DNA of 54,523 nucleotides, filler included, from Squatina squatina (Eukaryota), in NCBI GenBank assembly GCA_031763465.1. It is 3 parts of 3 records of this genome, joined end to end, with 100 filler letters (N's around TTAATTAATTAA, not from the genome) between each part and the next. Parts side by side here need not be neighbours in the genome. Positions count along the whole stretch, not along the records: positions 39,443 to 54,523 come from JARFOE010000176.1; 2 more parts are not named here. One strand, written 5' to 3'. The position numbers and the translations under genes were made by a program. Positions 8,665 to 54,523 of the stretch are shown here, piece by piece; the stretch's first letter is position 1; each line of letters opens with the position of its first letter. The notes below the pieces were generated by a model, which ran no database searches, was not told where the DNA came from, and saw only the letters and a program-made list of their open reading frames with translations.

Positions 8665-8848
8665 GCGTGTGGACTTTGGAAGTTGGAAATCGCACTGGTC
8701 CAGAACAATGTGCGTGGACCTGGGTGACTGGAATAGAGACTGGATCCAGGGAATGTGCATGAACCTCGGTGACTGCAATAGAGACGGGATCTTGGGCATG
8801 CGTGTGGACCTGGGTGACTGGAATAGAGATGGAATCCAGAGGATGCTT
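8665..8848. repeat. 45-bp tandem repeat, about 4 copies
   Basis: Unit anchors gtggac/atgaac recur at 8669, 8714, 8759 and 8804. Unit approx. tgcgtggacctgggtgactggaatagagactggatccagggaatg. Confidence 0.85.
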
Positions 8849-21012: not shown

Positions 21013-21145
21013 GTGTCCCCCCCTGTTCGTGTGCCTCGTACAGTGTGTCCCCCCTGTTCGTGTGCCTCGTACGGTGTGTCCCCCCGTTCGTGTGCCTCGT
21101 ACAGTGTGTCCCCCCTGTTCGTGTGCCTCGTACAGTGTGTCCCCC
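21013..21145. repeat. 30-31 bp minisatellite, about 4.3 copies
   Basis: Near-identical units gtgtgtcccccctgttcgtgtgcctcgtaca. Confidence 0.92.
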
Positions 21146-23461: not shown

Positions 23462-23914
23462 ACCCTACCCTCCTATCCCACCCTCCCTCACTCACCCTCC
23501 CTCGCTCCAACACCCTCCCTCCAACACCCTCCCTGCTTCACCCTCCCATCTCACCCTCCCGACCTCACCCTCCCTCCATCACCCTCCCTATCTCACCCTC
23601 CCTCACCCTCCCTCCATCACTCTCCCTCCCTCACCTACCCTTGCTCACCCTCCCTCGCTCACCCTCCCTCCCTCACCCTCCCTAGCTCCGCCTTCCCACC
23701 TCACTCACTCCACCTCACTCACTCACTCTCCCTCCCTCACTCACTCACTCACTCTCTCTCCCTCCCTCACTCTCACTCACACCCTCTCACTCTCTCCCTC
23801 CCTCACTCTCCCTCCCTCACTCACTCTCTCACGCTCCCTCACTCTCACGCACACCCCCTCGCTCACTCTCTCCCCCACACACTCTCTCTCGCGCCAACAC
23901 TCTCGCACACACTC
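23462..23914. repeat. C/T-rich low-complexity simple repeat (CCCT, CACT, CT units)
   Basis: Directly visible; ends at the scaffold end. Confidence 0.9.
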
Positions 23915-39442: not shown

Positions 39443-39952
39443 CACTCACAGGCTGGGGGGGGGGGGGGGGGCATACCGAGGCCCATGCACACCTGTGCAC
39501 ACTTTCTCACACACACGCACACTCACTCTGCACACACACACACACACAGACACACACTGTGTGTACAAACCACACCCCACTCATAAATCCCAGGCACCGT
39601 CTTCACCAACATCTGCATTAACTGTTACCCGGAGACAGGCTCAGTCAATAAACCTATCCCCGCCTCTGGAGGGAAAGCAGTTTCTGAAAATATTGACAAC
39701 TTTTGCTATCGTTACTTTCAAAACATCTAACCACAGTTCCTTTGGCTGGGAGACAAGCAGTTCCTAAATAAGAGAACAAATTTTACATTAAAAACACGCG
39801 CCTGAATCAGCGGAGGTCCTAGCTCGAGATTACTCTTATTAATAAGAGCACTGACAAAAACTGCCGACCTCCTGGTGATATTAATGCATTATTACATGCT
39901 TCCTATTGCAAGGGAGAAACATAAACAATCATAATATTCTTTTTTTTTGCAC

Positions 39953-40093
39953 CTTGGAGATCTGTTTCAACGCAAAAGCAGCGTGGCAGTAGCTGGGTCT
40001 CCGCAGCAGATCCGAGCAGGCGGCCGGAATTTGGTGATTGTACCTCGGGGGCAGAGCTCCATCGTTCCGGGGAAGATCAGAAACCGAAGCCAT
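39953..40093 (-). CDS. PTCH2: Patched (PTCH2-type) first coding exon
   Basis: Kozak context GAC-ATG-G. 141 nt encoding MASVSDLPRNDGALPPRYNHQIPAACSDLLRRPSYCHAAFALKQISK, then |gtgcaa. SDLLRRPSYCHAAFALKQISK matches recalled fish Ptch2 (PTCH1 has YLHRPSYCDAAFALEQISK). Confidence 0.9.
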
Positions 40094-44096: not shown

Positions 44097-44228
44097 GGAA
44101 TCAAGGGTTATGGGGAGAAGGCGGGAAGGTGGACTTGAGAAATGTCGGATCAGCCATGATCCAATTGAATGGCAGAGCGGGCTCGACGGGCCAAATGGCC
44201 TACTCCTGCTCCTACTACTTATGGTCTT
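44097..44228 (+). mobile_element. CR1 3' tail
   Basis: ggaatcaagggttatgggg...gatcagccatgat...gaatggcagagcgggctcgacgggccaaatggcctactcctgctccta. Confidence 0.85.
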
Positions 44229-44314
44229 AATACGTCCCCACATTGTCAATTACACACTAAGCCCTTGAGAGAGTCTAAGTTTCATCTTTTATTTAAATGA
44301 AATAATTCAGATAT

Positions 44315-44670
44315 CCCTAGTCTGTGTGGGATAGCTGATTTCAGTACAGACTAGGGCAGAAGTGGGTGTCACCATTGACCTGAGTGATCTTGGGTTAGGG
44401 AAGGGATACATCAGCCAAGATTCCTGCTCTTGATTGCTGTGCAGCCACCTTTTCTGGCAATGCACAAGTATGGACAAAAGAGCAAAGACAGGATTGTGCT
44501 TAACTATGATGATTGAGTGTTTGAATAGCCTACCCGTACTCACTGTCTCGGATCACAGAATGATGGCTACTTGGGTGAATTATTGTAAGATGACTGACAC
44601 CCATGGAATTGTATCCAGTAAGTGGTCAATGCCTTCAAGAAAGGAGGCAGGAGGAGAAAATTGGCAAGAA
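44315..44670 (+). mobile_element. Ancient SINE (AmnSINE2-like) body and 3' part
   Basis: tagctgatttcag, tagggaaggg...atcagccaagattcctgctcttgat, gaatagcct...ctcactgtct and ggagaaaattggc motifs. Confidence 0.55.
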
Positions 44671-44934
44671 GCAAAAGGAGGGAAAAATTCAGGGTTTCAT
44701 ATTTAGTACTATGCTAATTTTTTCAATATTAGTAACCTTCATTCATTTAATAATTATAATCCTTTTGAGACAATAAAATAGAAGAAAATAAATTTTTAAA
44801 AGCTTTAATTTTTTATGATGGTGGTTGGGAGATGATTTAATGCTTTTCTTTATACTTTTGCTTATTTATAGTGTTCTCTCCCTTACTAAGACATTCAATT
44901 TTCATCAATGATTATTATTTTGAGAAATATGAGA

Positions 44935-45235
44935 AGCCTCGTGGTTCATTTCGTGAAAGCACTGCCCAGCGTGGAACACAGCCGTTCAGACCAGGAAGGT
45001 TTTAGGTATAATCCTGGTCTGTGCTGTGTTAGCTGATTTCAGCCAGGGTAATATAAGAGACGCTGCAATTGGCTTCAGACCCAGTGGACCAATGAGGGCA
45101 AAAATCAGCCAGGATTTCTACTCTTGGCTCCAACTGGAAAGTGTGCAAAGGTATGTAGCAGGATGGGCTTGGTTGAACTTCCTTCATGGTTGAATATCCT
45201 TCTAACACATGCTGTCTATACTCAGACATGTAATA
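44935..45235 (+). mobile_element. Ancient SINE (AmnSINE2-like)
   Basis: cagaccaggaagg...ggtctgtgctgtgttagctgatttcagcc...caattggc...aaaaatcagccagg...ctggaaagtg; paralogous to 44315-44670. Confidence 0.6.
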
Positions 45236-45261
45236 GTAGGTTTGGCTGAAATACTAGCAGG

Positions 45262-45407
45262 CAATATAGCCTGTAATTTCTTGGGGGCTGTTTTAACAGG
45301 CTGCGCGAACATTCAAAATATCGTGTACGTGCGATTTTTCTATTTAAAAGCCGGCTGTGCAGAACCCCTGGAGCGTTGCGTGGCCGCACAGCTTAAAAGG
45401 AACATTT
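45262..45407. mobile_element. Possible short hAT-type MITE remnant
   Basis: Right end gcacagcttaaaaggaacatt resembles ...CTTAGAGGGAACATTG-type TIRs; left end degenerate. Confidence 0.35.
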
Positions 45408-47899
45408 CCAGCAGGTAGCTGGTGTGTTTCAAATTGTACCTCAGCAAGAGTCAGCAGCTTCAGCGGAGGCAGGTGAGCAAAAAAAAAAGAAAAGAAACCA
45501 TTATGTGCAGCACAATATCTTGAAAAAACATGAATTTTGAAATTGCAAAAAAAATTATTTTACATATTTGTATGACAATGGCACATTTCTAGAAATACAG
45601 GAACCTGAGTAGGTGCCATTATCAATGTTTATATAGTAGCAACATGGCTTCTATAAAAACTGTCCTATAGAAATGATTGAGTGTAGTTTAAGAAAAATCA
45701 GTATTTTGAGGCGGTGGGCTGAGCTGAAATAAATAGTTTCATAATACTTCCCAGTAATACAAGATTGGCTACTGAAATGTGAGCTAAAGTAGAAAGCCAG
45801 AACAGTAGGGATTGTTAAATTCTCATATTCATAATATCTGATTGTCACTTGTTATTACTAAGCACGTCCCCATTATACGGATCTGAACTGAAAAACAAAG
45901 GAGGAAAATCTAAAGGATGATTTCTTATATTTTTAAATTCTCAGCATGCTTGAGAGGTCAATGATGTGAATGGGGTGGGCTGCTATTCTGATTGTGTGTC
46001 TGGGGGAGAAAGAGACATTCTTATCTTAGCTCAACGATGTCGCTGTGTATTCACAGGCTAATTACCAGAGTTAGTGGAAACCAGTGGCCGTGCAATTTCT
46101 GTGGTATATATTTTTGAGTTTTCCATATAATTTCTTGAAATCTATAAGCCATAAGCTTTCAAATAATTTTTTAAAAACTGGATGAAGATTGGGCTCACCA
46201 TTGATTTGTTTTTGATTCCACCTCTGCTCATTTTCACATTGTGCTGCCAAAGTTAATTATCAACTGATAGCATAATCGGATGTCATATTCTGACATGAAC
46301 AAAATGATCTTTTCTAGTGTGCAGTTACCGACCATTACACAGTTGAAACAGCTATTATTATGGTTATGAATAGTCAGTGATCGCTACATTAGCAAGATCC
46401 ACAAAATGTCCACCGTGCACAAAATGGCAGTGCAAAGCATCTGGAGTGAAACAGTGCACATAATAGAGCTGTGTTGCAGTCATTCAACTGGGTGAATAAA
46501 ATGCCAGCTTTCAAGACATCTAATTACAGCACTGAATGAATGAATCTGTGTAAATGTAACGGTTCATGAATCTACCTGTTTAGTAGTGTTTATTTCAATG
46601 TTTTTAATTTAAAGCTTCAAGTTATTTTCTATTATTGATGCAGTGAGGTATAAAAATGTTACTGATGAGAAAAAACCCTTTTTTAACAAAAGGAATATTG
46701 TGCTGCAGATTTCACTCAATAAAAAGCATGCAGAATTTGCCTGAACTCTCAGCAGATTCCACTGATCCTAATTGCTTGCAATATAGCAACTTTCAGCATC
46801 AAGCAGGGATTGTTTTTCTTAATTGTAATTTTTCTTTGGTTATAACACACAAACATGCATTATAGTCATAATATACAGTGTACATGGTATAGTAGAAAAG
46901 GTAGGTTGTGGTAGTGAGTAAACTTTACTGAGTGGTTTGCGTTGTGCACAGTCCTGGATGCTCATTCCAGGTAGCGATGGCGGTACTAGTGTGACTATAA
47001 AATCTTTTGAATTGAGTTTCTGCTTCTCCTTTGCTTTACAATATTCACCTATTATTCTTATGCGCTCAATTGTTAGTCTTCCTTTTCTCTGTGTAAATGT
47101 ACTTCCATGAACGTCTATGTATTATATAATAAATTAGAGCTTTACTGATGTTTGCTGTTCACTGTGTTTTGGGTTCAGTGGTACCCTCTCAACAGCTAAC
47201 CCTTTTCAATAAATTATAACTTAAGGTACCATCTCTTTGCTCCTTAGCTCTGTTGTGTGCACAATTGTTTCTTAATGTTAGTTACAACTCCTCATACAAG
47301 CACACATGTGTACCTCTGATTGTTTACTTTCCTCCTGGTATATTACACAGGGACATCTTATGCTACAGCTATGTTACTTTTCAGGCCATCTTGCAATGTT
47401 TATGTGGCTCTTAACAGAAACCATTTTCCAGTCAGAAAGGTCACATTTCCTTAAAGTTCTATAGGCTTGAATTTACATGCCAATAACAGTGCTGAGCTAC
47501 TGCTATCTAAATAGTCTTGTAATTCCCTGCTAAGCTAGTACAAATGAGCCCTGTGGCTACTGTAAAAGATGATAGTAGCACCTGTCAGGTATCTGGGCAC
47601 AGCAATATTTGGGGTATGACTCAGTGAATGTAACTCCAAAGAAATGTCAAATTATGATTAATATAATTCTTCTTCCTACTGGTGTCGACTACACTTTGTA
47701 AGTGTATGGTTTCTTCCTGTTTGTAGTTAATGCTGGATACTTCAGAACTGTCTGAGCTGCCCACACTAAGCATGTGTGGCAAGTCTTTTAGCCTCCTGTC
47801 TCCATCAGGACTAGCATGAAACATGAATGGAGACATAAAAGAGGTAAATAAATATAGAATAATGCATACGTGGGAGTGATTACAAGGCTGAAAGCTTAA

Positions 47900-48257
47900 G
47901 GAAACAGAATCACCAAATGCTTGTGCTCATCAAGATGAAGGAGGTTAGTGCTGGGAGGTCAATTCCCTCAATAATGTACAACCAAAGCCTCAAAGAAGAA
48001 TCTCCTACTGTGCCAGTGTGACAGTTCCATTTCCCACATCAGTCATTCTTGTGGCTTCTCTGAGTAACACTGGCAATTAATGCCAAATAGAGCTGAATTA
48101 TGGGCAGTTAGTGCTATGGACCTGTGCCCACTAGGATTGAGGCTGCCACAGACTCATTTAGCTAAGAATCACTTACAGGCTGGAAAGAGAGGAGATTATC
48201 ATCCAATCAGTCTGAGGTAGATTAAAATACAACCCAAACCTTAGAGGTGAAAGGACA
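47900..48257 (-). mobile_element. LF-SINE-like ancient SINE remnant
   Basis: On the - strand, cctttcacctcta, aaatgagt and tcctagtgggcacaggtcc occur in the recalled LF-SINE order. Confidence 0.45.
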
Positions 48258-48423
48258 ATTTAAAAAGTACATTTTAAAAAACCAAGAAGAAAATTAATAG
48301 CAACCCCTGCAAAGTGAAACATGACTTTTGATAGGTAAAAGCACCAAAACCTTATGGTAAACTAAGCTTTAAACAAACCATTAAATTAAGAAATAACAAT
48401 GACAAATAAAAAACTTTGTTCAC

Positions 48424-48591
48424 CAAGATATTTTGAGCTACATCATTCTCGATAGACAGGATGGCCAGCGAAGGTAGCCTGTTGTCTTCAATGGTCGATT
48501 GTAAAAATGATTTTATGAACTTCAACTTCAAAAAGCTCCATTTTCTGTTTGCCACTGACATGGGTATGACTAACAGGATCTTGAGTGTTAT
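48424..48591 (-). mobile_element. hAT transposase fossil, C-terminal dimerization domain
   Basis: ITLKILLVIPMSVANRKWSFLKLKFIKSFLQSTIEDNRLPSLAILSIENDVAQNIL against the hAT pattern ALRILLT.PVTVAS.ERSFSKLK.IK..LRST....RL..LAILSIE. Confidence 0.85.
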
Positions 48592-49909
48592 CCCTCACCA
48601 CCAACAAGGGCATGATTAACAGGATCCTGAGTGCTATCCCTCACCACCGATACGGGCATGATTAACAGGATCCTGAGTGCTATCCATCACCACCGATACG
48701 GGCCTGATTAACAGGATCGTGAGTGTTATCCATCACCACCAACACGGGCATGATTAACAGGATCGGGAATGCTGTCCATCATCACCAACACGGGCATGAT
48801 CAACAGGATTCTGAGTGCTATCCATCGTCATCGAAATGGGCATGGTTAACAGGATCGTGAGTGCTATCCATCACCACCGACACAGGCATGATTAACAGGA
48901 TCCTGAGGGCTATCCATCATCACCGACTCGGGCATGATTAACATGGTCATGAGTGCTTTCCATCACCACTGACACAGCCAGGATTAACAGGGTCCTGAGT
49001 GCTATCCATCACCACCAACACGGGCATGATTAACAGGATCCTGAGTGCTATCCATAATCACCCACACGGGCATGATTAACAGGATCCTGTGTGCTATCCC
49101 TCACCACCGATACGGGCATGATTAACAGGATCCTGAGTGCTATCCATCACCACCGACACGGGCATGATTAATAGGATCCTGAGTGCCATCCAACGTCACC
49201 GAAACGGCCATGGTTAATGGGATCGTGAGTGCCATCCATCGCCACCGATATGGGCATGATTAACACGATCGTGAGCGCTATCCATCACCACTGACATGGG
49301 CATGATTAACACGATTGTGAGTGCTATCCATCACCAAAAACAGAGGTATGATTAACAGGGACCTGAGCACTATCCATCACCACTGACACGAGCAGGATTA
49401 CCAGGATCATGAGTGCTATCCATCACCACTGACAAGAGAATGATTAACATGATCCTGAGTGCTACCCATCGTCACCAACATGGGCATGATTAACAGGGTC
49501 CTGAGTGCTATCTATCGCCACCGACACGGGTATGATTAACAGGATCCTGAGTGCCATCCATCACCACCGATACGGACATAATTAACAGGATCCTGAGTGC
49601 TACCCATCGCCACCAACATGGGCATGATTAACAGGATCCTGAGTGCTATCCATTGCCACAAATATGGGTATGATTAACAGGATCATGAGTGCTTCCCATC
49701 GCCACCAACTCAGGCATGATTAAAAGGATCGTGAGCGGTAACCATCACCACTGACACGGGCATGATTAACACGATCGTGAGTATTGTCCATCACCACTGA
49801 CATGGGTATGATTAACAGGATCCTGAGTGCTTCCCATCGCCACTAACTCAGGCATGATTAACACGGTCGTGACTGCTATCCATCACCACTGACACGGCCA
49901 GGATTAGCA
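48551..49909. repeat. 46-bp tandem array, about 29.5 copies, truncated by gap
   Basis: Consensus gggcatgattaacaggatcctgagtgctatccatcaccaccgacac; catgattaac recurs at 48611 and 48657 (period 46). Confidence 0.97.
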
Positions 49910-52900
49910 NNNNNNNNNNNNNNNNNNNNNNNNNNNNNNNNNNNNNNNNNNNNNNNNNNNNNNNNNNNNNNNNNNNNNNNNNNNNNNNNNNNNNNNNNNN
50001 NNNNNNNNNCTCCACTTCCTTTCGGTGTTGGTAATCTGAATTTAGCGAGCGGGGCGGGACTTCTGCGCCTGGTGAAGAATATCCCGCTTCCCGGATGTTA
50101 CTGCCGTACTAAATGGGGTGCAATGGAATTTTTCCCCCATAATGTCAAAACACATTACAATGGTCATGCAGAATTAAACTTCAGCATCAACTATTTAATA
50201 TTTCAGTCAGACTATAATATTATTTCTGGTTCATGATACTATGGTGGTGATATGCTACTTTAAACATTAACTTTAGCATTCAATCTTTTGCACTGCACTG
50301 TCTATTCACAAATAGTATAAATTGGCCAATCCGATACCACCTGTTTTCCCCCTCTGCCCAAGACGAATTTCTAGCTCTGTATGTTCTTTGATGAGATCAT
50401 CATACAGTTGCATGTAATATATTCCAGTAAGCCAGGCACCGACAGCACACACATAGAAGGTTAATAAGGGCAGAGGGCCAATTTCAGGCCAGCCTCAGCC
50501 TCTTTGCTCGGGCACGCACTGCCTGTGCAGCACCGAGTCTGGGCCCAAATAAAAATCTACCCCACGCTCTGGCTCATAGGGGACATGAGGTCCACTTATG
50601 GGTATAGCTCTTGATGCTGAATCTAAGGAAAATACCTACTGTAAAAACCCAATAATGTAAACTTAACACATTCATACAGTAGTTTCAGTGCAAAATATGC
50701 ATAGGTAAAAATTAATCATTAACACCACTATATTCCAAATTGTCCTTATTCCAGTGCTTGCATCAAAAGGTAATTATGAAATAAGATGTTATTCTTGTTG
50801 CAAGTTATAATCTTATTTTCTTCCTCTAAACATTCCCAAACCAGTTAAGAGAATGGCTGGAAATCTGATCCCAGCTCTCCGCCAGTGTTTTATAATGAGC
50901 CACTGGAAGGTAGGACAGAATGGCCTAGGCAAGTGGGGTTTACTTTTTTCCTACAATTTTTCCTCCCTTCTTTGAAAGAAGTAGCTAGCTTCCCATGATA
51001 GCATAGTTCTGTAAAGCTCACAGGCATGGAGGATATTAGATGCAAACCTGGGACCTGTGACTCTAAGATGCAGCACACTTCTTCAGTCATTATGATTTTT
51101 GTCCAATGTTCTGTTTTTAGTCTGATGTTGTACTTTAAATGACTTCAGCAGCAAAATGGTTAACAGGGTACATTTCTGGAATACCCATAATGTGTAAACT
51201 TTTTTTTTCTAACCTGACACATTCCAGTGAATCTAAACTGAGCGTTGCAGCACCAGATGGATTCTGGTATAAATAGATCGTTTCTTCCACTCCTTGTTGT
51301 TTAGGTTAGTTGCACTGAGTGCAGTCCCTGAAACATGCTTTATTTATACAGTAGATGTACCAGGAAAGCCCGTTATCCTGCAGTGCCCCTGATGCACAAA
51401 GTCTGCTCACTCTGGTACAGCCATAATAATCTCTTCTACTCTTGTTTACACTCAGTTGTAAAGCTGGATTCTTTCTCGTGTCCCAGTTATACTCTCACTT
51501 GAGAACTTGGGCATTTCCAATTTCCAGCACAATCTGATTTCTAACCAGCAGTAAAACTGTCACAGACTTCGTAAAACAGATTCTAGCAGACGTGTGATCA
51601 TTGGTGGTCTGCTGAATCTACTTTGGCTAGAACTGGAATGAAATCAGAATCATCCCAGGCTCATTCTGCATGAAGAAGTGCTGTGAGGTTATTCTGCATT
51701 AAAACACATGTAAAATAGTGTGAATGAAATAAGTTGGGATAAAAAAAAAATTCTCATATAAATAGTCTTGGATACAGGGCAGAATTGTTTTGTGTGCAGC
51801 TGTTAAGCCTATTTCAGTGATAAATGTGGCATAATTACCCACAATTACAGCAAAGCAGTAATATACAATTTAGCTCTTTCACATCTTAATTTGCCAAAGG
51901 TAGCCAGTTAAGGTATCCAATGGAATGCTAGGTGCAACTGTGCAAATTAAAAAGCTAACAGGAAATTAAATAATTGGTCTTTGTTAACAGCTTCTGCTGG
52001 CAGTAACTGAAGCAAAATGGTGNNNNNNNNNNNNNNNNNNNNNNNNNNNNNNNNNNNNNNNNNNNNNNNNNNNNNNNNNNNNNNNNNNNNNNNNNNNNNN
52101 NNNNNNNNNNNNNNNNNNNNNNTAGGCCTGCTCAGCTGCAGTACGGGGGTTGCAAAGGAGAGTCATGAGCCAAGTTAGCAAGGGGTACCCTTTGTCTCCC
52201 AGCAGCCATTCACGCAGGGGATTGAGACTCTCAAAGTTGTGGGATCTTGCTTTGACAAATTATGAATGCGTTCAAGCAGTAGTTTCCCACATTTCCTAAT
52301 CTGAATACAGTCACTATTGTACGACAACCACAGGACTCAAACTTCAGTGAAGTTGTACACGACTCGGTAGTGATCCTGCATTACGTTACAGAATGTTACA
52401 TCACTCAGTGACTACAATGATATATAAAATGGATACCATAATCGAAGTTGTTGAATGCAGTGTTTATTTTCATGAGTAATGAATGACAAGGTCATAACAT
52501 ACTTACGCAGGTCAGCTCCACTCATGGAATAAACATGGCATGCAATAAAGTCATCTGTACCGTTCTATTTATATACCTGTGTGGTATAGTTAAATATTTA
52601 AAAGAAACTGTTATGAATGGAGTTTGGTAGTGTGTACTTGTTGAACAGCGCACAACCCAGAATGCTCAGGGGCAGACATCGACTGCCATCGGCTACTCCC
52701 TGAAGATGTCGCAGTACGTGTTAGGGTTTCACTTTAATGGGGAAGTTTGCTTGCTTCTTTTAATTTCAGTAGTGTCTGTACAAGTTTCTTGCAGGTTGTA
52801 TGTGTTTTTGTGCATCAGCTGTACTCGTGCCAGCATCTTGTTTTTTTTCAGCTGTTGGTACTCTCGAATATTTAGGGGCAATCACAGTGAAGGAATTGTT

Positions 52901-53499
52901 ATGGTTACAGCTAGTTCGCGCTGATGATGAAAGCAAGCAGACTTGCAGAAAAGTAGTTTTGGTTAGTGTGTTCCTCACATATGTGGAACAAATTTCTTAT
53001 TCCATATGTGTGAGGTAACAAATATTTACTGCATGCTTTTCTGGGTTACAAACTAAGGCCTAGAAAATCGTCCGTGCAACATCCATTTTTCGGGCACTGG
53101 CTGGCCTACTGATCCCAATATGGTGGGCAGGAAACATGCGTTGGAAGTGCGCCACCCGCCAATCGGCAGTGGTAGCAAGAGTGCATGTCGGAAGCATTTA
53201 AAGTCCAGAATAATTTATTCAATTAGGGCCCTGTGCGAATGCAGGACCCACTGTTGATTTTCTAATGCCCCAGCATTTTATTTGCCAAGTGCTGAACTTG
53301 CACAACACAACGTGGCGATAACTGGAAGGAAGGCCCCCTCACCAGCAAAAGGGATCATGCAGTACTTACAGGTTGGTTGCTGTCTCCTTATTTCAGGATG
53401 CTGCTTGACTTCTGGTGTTCTGTCACTCTGGAAAGTTCACTTTGTCTGCACAGAGAAAGATTTTGCTGGTCTTGCACTGTTGTTGGGGAGATGGCTCAT

Positions 53500-53670
53500 C
53501 AGGGGAAGGTAGTAGCAGCCAGGTTCATGGCACCGTGGGTGGCTCTGTTGCACAGGAGGGGAGGAAAAAGAGTGGGAGAGCTATAGTGATAGAGGATTCG
53601 ATTGTAAGGGGAATAGATAGGCGTTTCTGCGGCCGCAAACGAGACTCCAGGATGGTATGTTGCCTCCCTG
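53500..53670 (+). mobile_element. CR1 ORF1 SGNH/GDSL esterase fragment
   Basis: RAIVIEDSIVRGIDRRFCGRKRDSRMVCCLP (canonical VIGDSIVRG...VCCLPGA). Confidence 0.85.
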
Positions 53671-54523
53671 NNNNNNNNNNNNNNNNNNNNNNNNNNNNNN
53701 NNNNNNNNNNNNNNNNNNNNNNNNNNNNNNNNNNNNNNNNNNNNNNNNNNNNNNNNNNNNNNNNNNNNNNAAAATGGTGCTACTGTGAATTAGTCATTAA
53801 GAGCGAGGAGGAAGGGAATTGTCAGAGAAATCTATGAATAATTCAAACCTAGTTGAGCTGGTGAATAACTTTAGATAAGACTGGTTATTGAGTTAAATAG
53901 TGGGGGAGGTGTTAGTGTTCTAATTGATTACAATGTGTGCTGGTTCAAGTCTTACCTTTAGAGGAATATATTTTTTCATGTAATTGCATATTGAATTCTT
54001 CAGTTATAAGTTAAGGTATTTTATAAAATTTATTTTATAGGACTGAAAATTTTTGTTGGCCTGCAGAGATATGTATTTCCTGAACATACGGACATTTGAA
54101 CAATAAACTTGGTCTTTGCAAGCCGAAGATAAACAGCACATGTATATTAAAAAAAAATCAATAAACCTACTACTTCCTTAAAGAAAATCTATTTATGGAG
54201 ACCAGCTTCTCCACTATCCTATCTATGATGTATTGTAATAATAAAAAATGCACTGTTTTACAAGAAAATCCCCTTGTAAAAGTCACTAAGTCAGCCTGAA
54301 ATCCTGTTGTATGAATCTGTGGAGCATAAAGGCCTTGCAGCTTTTGCCAGAGCGGACACTGTTCCTGACAGATGTTAAGCTCATCTCATGATGGATCGCG
54401 CTGGCTCAGGACAATGACCCTTTTGTGCGAGATTCAAATGTCAGGACAACAGAGAGCTTAGTGTAAAGCCAACTTCCCTTTACTTGGGGTGGGGAGGAAG
54501 AGAAATCTGCTTGTAAGCTCAAC

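What the first reader, a model, noticed from the sequence alone, without database searches (positions are those of the whole stretch)
48424..49909. Satellite array derived from the coding sequence of a hAT transposase dimerization domain
Seen: the reverse complement of the 46-bp consensus unit reads ATA GCA CTC AGG ATC CTG TTA ATC ATG CCC GTG TCG GTG GTG ATG (IALRILLIMPVSVVM). The array's edge unit runs in frame, without a break, into ...SFLKLKFIKSFLQST...RLPSLAILSIE. Known: this is the hAT C-terminal dimerization motif. Inference: a 46-nt piece of a dead transposase was tandemly amplified in place at least 29 times, with the parent still attached. The consensus (ALRILL) is closer to the hAT pattern than the edge unit (TLKILL). 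Because 46 is not a multiple of 3 and a TAA falls in another frame, the array is non-coding. Many unit variants are CpG to TpG/CpA changes, consistent with methylation. The array is on the same scaffold as PTCH2, upstream of it, but across several gaps.
Basis: partly seen in the sequence, partly recalled or inferred. Interest (0 to 1): 0.7.

Follow-up and report, generated by a model that had tools for sequence, protein, structure and literature searches.

The report
Transposase-derived minisatellite riding a hAT MITE
This 46-base repeat is a duplicated piece of a dead jumping gene's coding sequence that sits inside a small, dispersed jumping element at many sites in this genome and likely grew to about 100 copies at this site, a route to satellite DNA already described in goosefoot plants and, in part, in frogs.

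Summary
Observation confirmed: 29.5 copies of a 46-bp unit (48552-49906) run in frame into a hAT dimerization-domain remnant (Pfam E=5e-4, just under the cut-off). The event is not unique to this locus. The same flank and array recur on other contigs. Single-unit parent copies exist: a ~600-bp non-autonomous hAT element with terminal inverted repeats and 8-bp target duplications, in which the unit is one stretch of a continuous transposase frame. This fixes the direction: transposase to satellite, not capture. The window copy is 3'-truncated. Two private substitutions, present in its edge unit too, mark most of its units and two array-only contigs that probably fill the gap, so growth to about 100 units was likely local. 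One shared origin of the 46-bp junction is favoured over repeated births but not shown (star tree). Close precedents: Chenopodium CficCl-61-40 from CACTA tnp2 (PMC7320549) and Xenopus miDNA4. The scan noted an analogous swollen MITE in another genome, not this family. New member of a known kind; interest 0.3.

The parts
48379..48423 (-). Start of the MITE's AT-rich 3' non-coding part; family homology ends at 48379, so the last ~190 bp and the 3' inverted repeat are missing in this copy
   Evidence: BLAST of a single-unit copy's 3' half matches only its positions 1-173, at 48551-48379; no inverted-repeat match with up to 2 mismatches in 44097-48600 or 50010-54523
48424..48549 (-). C-terminal hAT dimerization-domain remnant following the last unit, in frame with it
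48550..48595 (-). Edge unit (parent position of the 46-bp unit); carries both locus-private markers (positions 27 and 37) plus its own decay
48596..49909 (-). 28 further full 46-bp units and a 26-bp partial unit, cut off by the assembly gap; 8.8% non-CpG divergence from their own majority; no higher-order period
49910..50009 (.). 100-N gap, inferred to hold more of the array (array-only contigs G000:C425712, 57 units, and G000:C918318, 15 units, share the private markers) and possibly the MITE's 5' half
   Evidence: placement in the gap is inference

Best explanation
The array is the internal minisatellite of a dispersed, ~600-bp non-autonomous hAT element (MITE), made of a 46-bp piece of that element's transposase remnant, which was likely duplicated once in a source copy during the family's burst and then likely grew in place here to about 100 units. 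Steps: (1) shown: an internally deleted hAT element kept both inverted repeats and about 310 bp of transposase 3' coding DNA and spread with 8-bp target duplications. (2) Inferred: one tandem duplication with only 1 nt of microhomology created the 46-bp junction, and source copies with and without it kept transposing. (3) Supported: after insertion each array expanded or turned over locally, most likely by unequal exchange or slippage, fixing private variants. (4) Supported: this array then stopped homogenizing and decayed, fastest at CpG sites; its 3' end was lost. It has no coding role and no function is indicated.
For: Parent anatomy: 27 of 28 loci holding both halves have one unit or none, in a continuous transposase frame where the unit is intact; that frame passes Pfam's cut-off (35 bits), and six natural transposases carry the motif once. 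Inverted repeats CAGGGCCGGCC at both ends; of 8 copies with both, target duplications match 8/8 twice and 7/8 once. Array inside the element: of 62 loci with 2 or more units, 14 have the 5' half, 19 the 3' half, L004 has both, 30 are array only. Shared junction: 1178 of 1276 unit spacings are exactly 46 bp; the majority unit of arrays equals that of single-unit copies at all 46 positions; microhomology at offset 46 is one base, which makes precise recurrence unlikely. Non-CpG variants shared between arrays but rare in parents: A at 41 in 24 of 57 arrays vs 2 of 22 singles, C at 29 in 14 of 57 vs 0 of 22. Local growth: T27 and G37 are the majority in only 3 of 57 arrays (window, C425712, C918318); a pattern holding them has 13 matches genome-wide, all on those three; the longest exact overlap with the window is 37-41 nt, so these are extra units, not the same DNA twice. 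Age: units 8.8% and flank 9.0% non-CpG divergence.
Against: Array-bearing copies do not form a clade: star tree of 37 rows, 13 label changes vs shuffled mean 12.3, AU p=0.058; no diagnostic site survives correction (best p=0.0027 of 1368 tests). No complete copy with 2-6 units was seen among 28, although a two-unit source should leave some. One array (L085) has a different, 51-bp unit from the same segment, so the segment may have been duplicated at least twice. A at 41 completes a 6-bp repeat across the junction and could recur without shared descent (inference). The two extra contigs have no unique flank, so their place in this gap is unproven.
Confidence: 0.7

Rival explanations
1. Recurrent birth: single-unit MITE copies inserted first, and the same 46-bp segment was then duplicated independently at many sites because the sequence or a shared repair route dictates the junction.
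For: No array clade or diagnostic sites; complete copies have at most 1 unit or at least 7; the window's edge unit carries both private markers, one only 9 bp from the flank; a separate 51-bp array arose from the same segment.
Against: Only 1 nt of microhomology at offset 46, with better matches at offsets 40, 43 and 58; no unusual hairpin in five parents (z -1.67 to +1.23); in other arrays edge units carry only 11 of 21 (3') and 4 of 12 (5') majority markers; variants at 29 and 41 are shared between loci. A star tree is also expected from a fast burst.
Confidence: 0.17
2. A source MITE already carrying a long array transposed as a whole; the window's markers came with it, and little growth happened here.
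For: Units and flank are equally diverged (8.8% vs 9.0%); shared variants between arrays; no short complete arrays.
Against: T27/G37 arrays occur at no other flanked locus; other loci have their own private majorities and within-array distance is lower than between (0.131 vs 0.175); arrays reach 87-98 units on single contigs, long cargo for a 600-bp element.
Confidence: 0.1
3. One reading: a unique in-place amplification from one dead full-length transposase at this locus.
For: Edge unit in frame with the remnant and sharing private markers.
Against: The same flank-plus-array structure on 13 of 13 other contigs fetched; parents are short MITEs; no close long transposase found (best long hit 32% identity, 54 of 191 candidates scored).
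Confidence: 0.02
4. Capture: a pre-existing satellite inserted into the MITE and resembles the transposase by chance.
For: This is the model proposed for miDNA4 as relayed in PMC12628747.
Against: The unit is needed, once and in frame, to complete the hAT domain on both sides.
Confidence: 0.01

Closest known systems
CficCl-61-40 satellite of Chenopodium, from CACTA tnp2B deletion derivatives (Belyayev et al. 2020, PMC7320549; abstract and sections 5 and 8 read)
   Same: A ~40-bp piece of transposase coding DNA is the start monomer of an attached array (8-94 monomers); the parent is a deletion derivative, not the intact element; several loci show the same association.
   Different: Here hAT rather than CACTA, a vertebrate rather than a plant; both flanks, inverted repeats, target duplications and single-unit parents are in hand; a minor, old family (about 2,500 assembled units, extrapolated) rather than a major satellite (3.8% of the genome in C. 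acuminatum).
miDNA4 MITE of Xenopus tropicalis (Scalvenzi and Pollet 2014; seen only as described in PMC12054243, PMC9659126, PMC12628747)
   Same: MITE with an internal motif present as one monomer in most copies (61% there; 24 of 37 copies with a visible 5' half here) or as an array of variable length.
   Different: miDNA4 is Tc1/mariner and its repeat is proposed to be captured; here the unit is native transposase coding sequence.
hAT superfamily, Tip group, non-autonomous derivatives (PMC3942097, passages read)
   Same: Short inverted repeats, 8-bp target duplications, hAT dimerization domain; nearest full-length relatives have DUF4371 plus Dimer_Tnp_hAT like BuT2 and are named ZMYM1-like or TTF-domain proteins of amphibians.
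   Different: No tree against Ac, Buster and Tip references was built; the internal coding-derived array was not in the passages read.
Satellites from retrotransposon ORFs (HinfI/CR1, PROsat/L1, E3900/gag; review PMC9659126 section 6 and Table 1)
   Same: Tandem repeat born from mobile-element coding DNA.
   Different: Class I elements; Table 1 lists no hAT case.

Membership tests
hAT superfamily element | C-terminal dimerization domain (PF05699) | tested here: met
   Sister copy P0001 35 bits, over the 21.4 cut-off; window piece 20.3 bits, E=5e-4, just under
hAT superfamily element | Short terminal inverted repeats | tested here: met
   Met for the family (8 copies with both ends); not found in the window copy
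hAT superfamily element | 8-bp target-site duplication | tested here: met
   8/8 in L067 and L078, 7/8 in L066; 5, 4, 2, 1, 0 of 8 in the other five
hAT Tip group | Phylogenetic placement with Tip100/BuT2 | not tested
   Only the domain layout of relatives at 49-59% identity agrees; the likeness of the inverted repeat to mammalian Tip100 elements is recalled, from no call
MITE / non-autonomous DNA transposon | Short, non-coding, inverted repeats kept, dispersed in many copies | tested here: met
   424-622 bp; 65, 108 and 143 first-look candidates (lower bounds); stops and frameshifts in most copies
MITE-borne tandem repeat (miDNA4 type) | Monomer or variable-length array between the element's two halves | tested here: met
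   24 single vs 13 multi among 37 copies with the 5' half; L004 has 7 units between both halves
Transposase-derived satellite (CficCl-61-40 type) | Start monomer is an in-frame piece of transposase attached to the array | tested here: met
Classical (heterochromatic) satellite DNA | Very long, concertedly homogenized arrays in heterochromatin | not testable with these tools
   Longest assembled pieces 87-98 units, cut by contig ends; units are 15-19% apart within the window array, so little recent homogenization; no cytology

The most novel reading that the evidence does not exclude
The 46-bp segment is a sequence-programmed minisatellite seed: dozens of single-unit MITE copies independently fired the same base-exact duplication after insertion and ran away to long arrays. 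That would give a natural replicate experiment on how a non-repetitive sequence becomes satellite DNA, with unfired siblings as controls.
Probability: 0.17. Interest if true: 0.6.

Novelty: new member of a known kind. Interest (0 to 1): 0.3.

Why it matters
How the first tandem duplication of a satellite arises is usually invisible. Here the ancestral single-copy state, both flanks, the exact junction and dozens of arrays with private histories are all readable, and the reading frame fixes the direction (element to satellite), which the MITE cases in the reviews I read leave open. Eight literature searches found no hAT-transposase-derived satellite and no shark report of this family. They cover only open-access full text, and Repbase and Dfam were not available, so the family may already be catalogued. 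The kind of event is published (PMC7320549), the family is old and small, and no function or link to Patched is indicated, so the interest is modest.

Tried and rejected
Pfam on the unit alone: 15 residues, below the tool's minimum; not run. Search for an autonomous parent: PF05699 scan gave 29 matches and a full-length relative as query 55 matches (54 of 191 candidates scored); long hits were 27-42% identical and belong to other families; none close and intact was found, which is not proof of absence. PDB sequence search with P0001 gave no hAT hit. Higher-order repeat: no period stands out in lag profiles of the window, C425712 or C441666. Hairpin as the trigger: not supported. Subfamily split between array and single copies: distance permutation p=0.62 (5' half) and 0.039 (3' half, effect 0.0035, probably because array copies are slightly more diverged), no corrected diagnostic site, star tree. 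A first unit count was wrong through a regex setting and was redone. MITE 5' half in the window beyond the gap: none; 50010-50140 is a different common repeat, and none of its 9 fetched copies outside this locus adjoins the array. Public runs: no RNA holder listed. One of four laid runs (organism B) had no cover over 48346-48700, and no laid contig of organisms A, C or D looked like an orthologous copy of the window's MITE piece; parts without cover prove nothing. Whether the site is empty in relatives remains open. Earlier findings by place and by sequence gave nothing on this family. Loci came from top-scoring hits, so all counts are of a selected sample; 24 loci that repeated a place already held were dropped before the census, and L085 was left out of unit-marker counts.

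Full report
Observation. The array is real: period 46, 29.5 copies, 48552-49906, no indels, ending at a 100-N gap. On the minus strand the last unit runs in frame into a hAT dimerization-domain remnant. Pfam PF05699 matches 48424-48591 at E=5e-4, 20.3 bits, just under its cut-off of 21.4. All six frames of the array hold 26-33 stops. The stretch lies at G000:C176, window 48100 = C176:10553396. A Patched-like first exon lies about 8.5 kb away in the same stretch, across three gaps (E=0.011; paralog not tested).

It is a family. Searching the genome with 48100-48700 returned 223 matches from 40 of 201 candidates scored. All 13 other contigs fetched as loci carry the same flank and a 46-bp array in the same register. 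Their alignment continues about 190 bp past the point where the window copy stops and ends in an inverted repeat. A Pfam scan of the genome then gave copies with exactly one unit. These are short elements: 5' inverted repeat CAGGGCCGGCC, a short leader, about 310 bp of transposase 3' coding DNA, an AT-rich tail and the 3' inverted repeat. Eight copies with both ends are 424-622 bp; two have perfect 8-bp target duplications, one has 7 of 8, and the other five match at 5, 4, 2, 1 and 0. A single-unit copy translates without a stop over 105 codons and scores 35 bits on PF05699. Its nearest full-length relatives (837-856 aa, 49-59% identical) carry DUF4371 and the dimerization domain; two of the three are named ZMYM1-like or TTF-domain proteins of amphibians, one has no name. 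That layout matches the Tip-group element BuT2 (PMC3942097, passages), but I built no tree. Natural transposases hold the unit's motif once, so the single-unit state is ancestral and capture of a foreign satellite is excluded.

Census. Of 123 distinct loci, 103 held some part of the element; 62 had two or more units (1338 units): 14 with the 5' half, 19 with the 3' half, one (L004) with both, 30 array only. Of 28 loci with both halves, 27 have one unit or none and one has seven. Among 37 copies with a visible 5' half, 24 are single and 13 multi. An exact 20-mer of the unit occurs 608 times in the assembly and in 325 of 1364 fetched units, which extrapolates to about 2,500 assembled units. Flank and array are also covered by contigs of three of four laid runs from coded organisms. 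All loci came from top-scoring hits, so these are counts of a selected sample.

History at this locus. The majority unit across 22 arrays equals the majority of 16 single-unit copies at all 46 positions. The window array differs by two non-CpG markers: T at 27 in 27 of 29 units and G at 37 in 21 of 29, both also in the edge unit. They are the majority in only 3 of 57 arrays: the window and the array-only contigs C425712 (57 units) and C918318 (15 units). A pattern holding them has 13 genome-wide matches, all on these three. The longest exact match between them and the window is 37-41 nt, so they add units. I infer that they fill the gap, for about 100 units or 4.6 kb, and that growth was local. 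Units are 8.8% diverged from their own majority outside CpG and the flank 9.0% from the family majority, so growth came early and homogenization then stopped. No higher-order period was seen. CpG sites changed at 0.30 per site against 0.092 elsewhere, 52 of 201 differences, consistent with methylation (established knowledge). The copy lacks its 3' ~190 bp and inverted repeat. This fits either an empty site or a deletion in the window's lineage; it is unresolved, and it sits oddly with a copy more diverged from its family than the flank is between species.

One origin or many. For one origin: 1178 of 1276 spacings are exactly 46 bp; the parent has only one base of microhomology at that offset and no unusual hairpin; non-CpG variants are shared between arrays and rare in parents (A41 in 24 of 57 arrays vs 2 of 22 singles; C29 in 14 of 57 vs 0 of 22). 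Against: the 3' halves of 16 array and 21 single copies give a star tree with unclustered labels (13 changes vs 12.3 shuffled; AU p=0.058); no diagnostic site survives correction; no complete copy has 2-6 units; and L085 carries a lone 51-bp array from the same segment. I favour one duplication in a source copy followed by local growth (0.7) over recurrent birth (0.17) or transposition of ready-made long arrays (0.1).

Comparison with what is known. Belyayev et al. 2020 (PMC7320549; abstract, sections 5 and 8) describe a ~40-bp piece of CACTA tnp2 as start monomer of attached arrays of 8-94 units, the parent being a deletion derivative; this is nearly the same event. Xenopus miDNA4 is a MITE with one motif in 61% of copies and arrays in others (seen only through PMC12054243 passages, PMC9659126 passages and PMC12628747 section 6 part 1). 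Table 1 of PMC9659126 lists no hAT case. Eight searches found no report of this family; Repbase and Dfam could not be checked and no supplements were read. The scan's own notes hold an analogous swollen MITE in another genome (e1-9309164) and nothing on this sequence.

Verdict. Real, correctly spotted and well explained: a new member of a known kind, with unusually complete anatomy and no sign of function. Interest 0.3. The boldest reading not excluded, repeated base-exact birth at many sites, has probability 0.17 and would merit 0.6.

Noticed in passing
L085 (G000:C1050032:1170-1922): A lone 51-bp array of about 15 units from the same MITE segment with shifted boundaries and heavy private changes; no close match on any other contig. 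Either a second, independent duplication or a derivative of the 46-bp array.
   Followed up: partly
Empty site or later deletion is unresolved.
   Followed up: partly
L003:871-982: A different 15-16-bp satellite abuts the 46-bp array directly.
   Followed up: no
L026 (G000:C16:10055544-10055786, minus): Best PF05699 hit in the genome (70 bits) lies in an open frame of 3552 codons without stops, possibly a domesticated hAT-domain gene.
   Followed up: no
window 50010-50140: A common dispersed repeat (860 first-look candidates, about 82% identity) begins right after the gap; unrelated to the MITE.
   Followed up: partly
window 39950-40093 (minus): Patched-family first exon; best PDB hits are all Patched-1 (E=0.011).
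   Followed up: partly
L001, L004, L008, L014, L032, L041, L092, L109: Several copies of the family, with and without arrays, break off at positions 138-177 of the 3' half, in or just before the AT-rich tail, suggesting a preferred site for later insertion or deletion.
   Followed up: no
window 21013-21145, 8693-8840, 23463-23912: Other short tandem repeats (31-bp x4.3, 45-bp x3.3, a CCCT-rich tract) in the first stretch of the pack.
   Followed up: no
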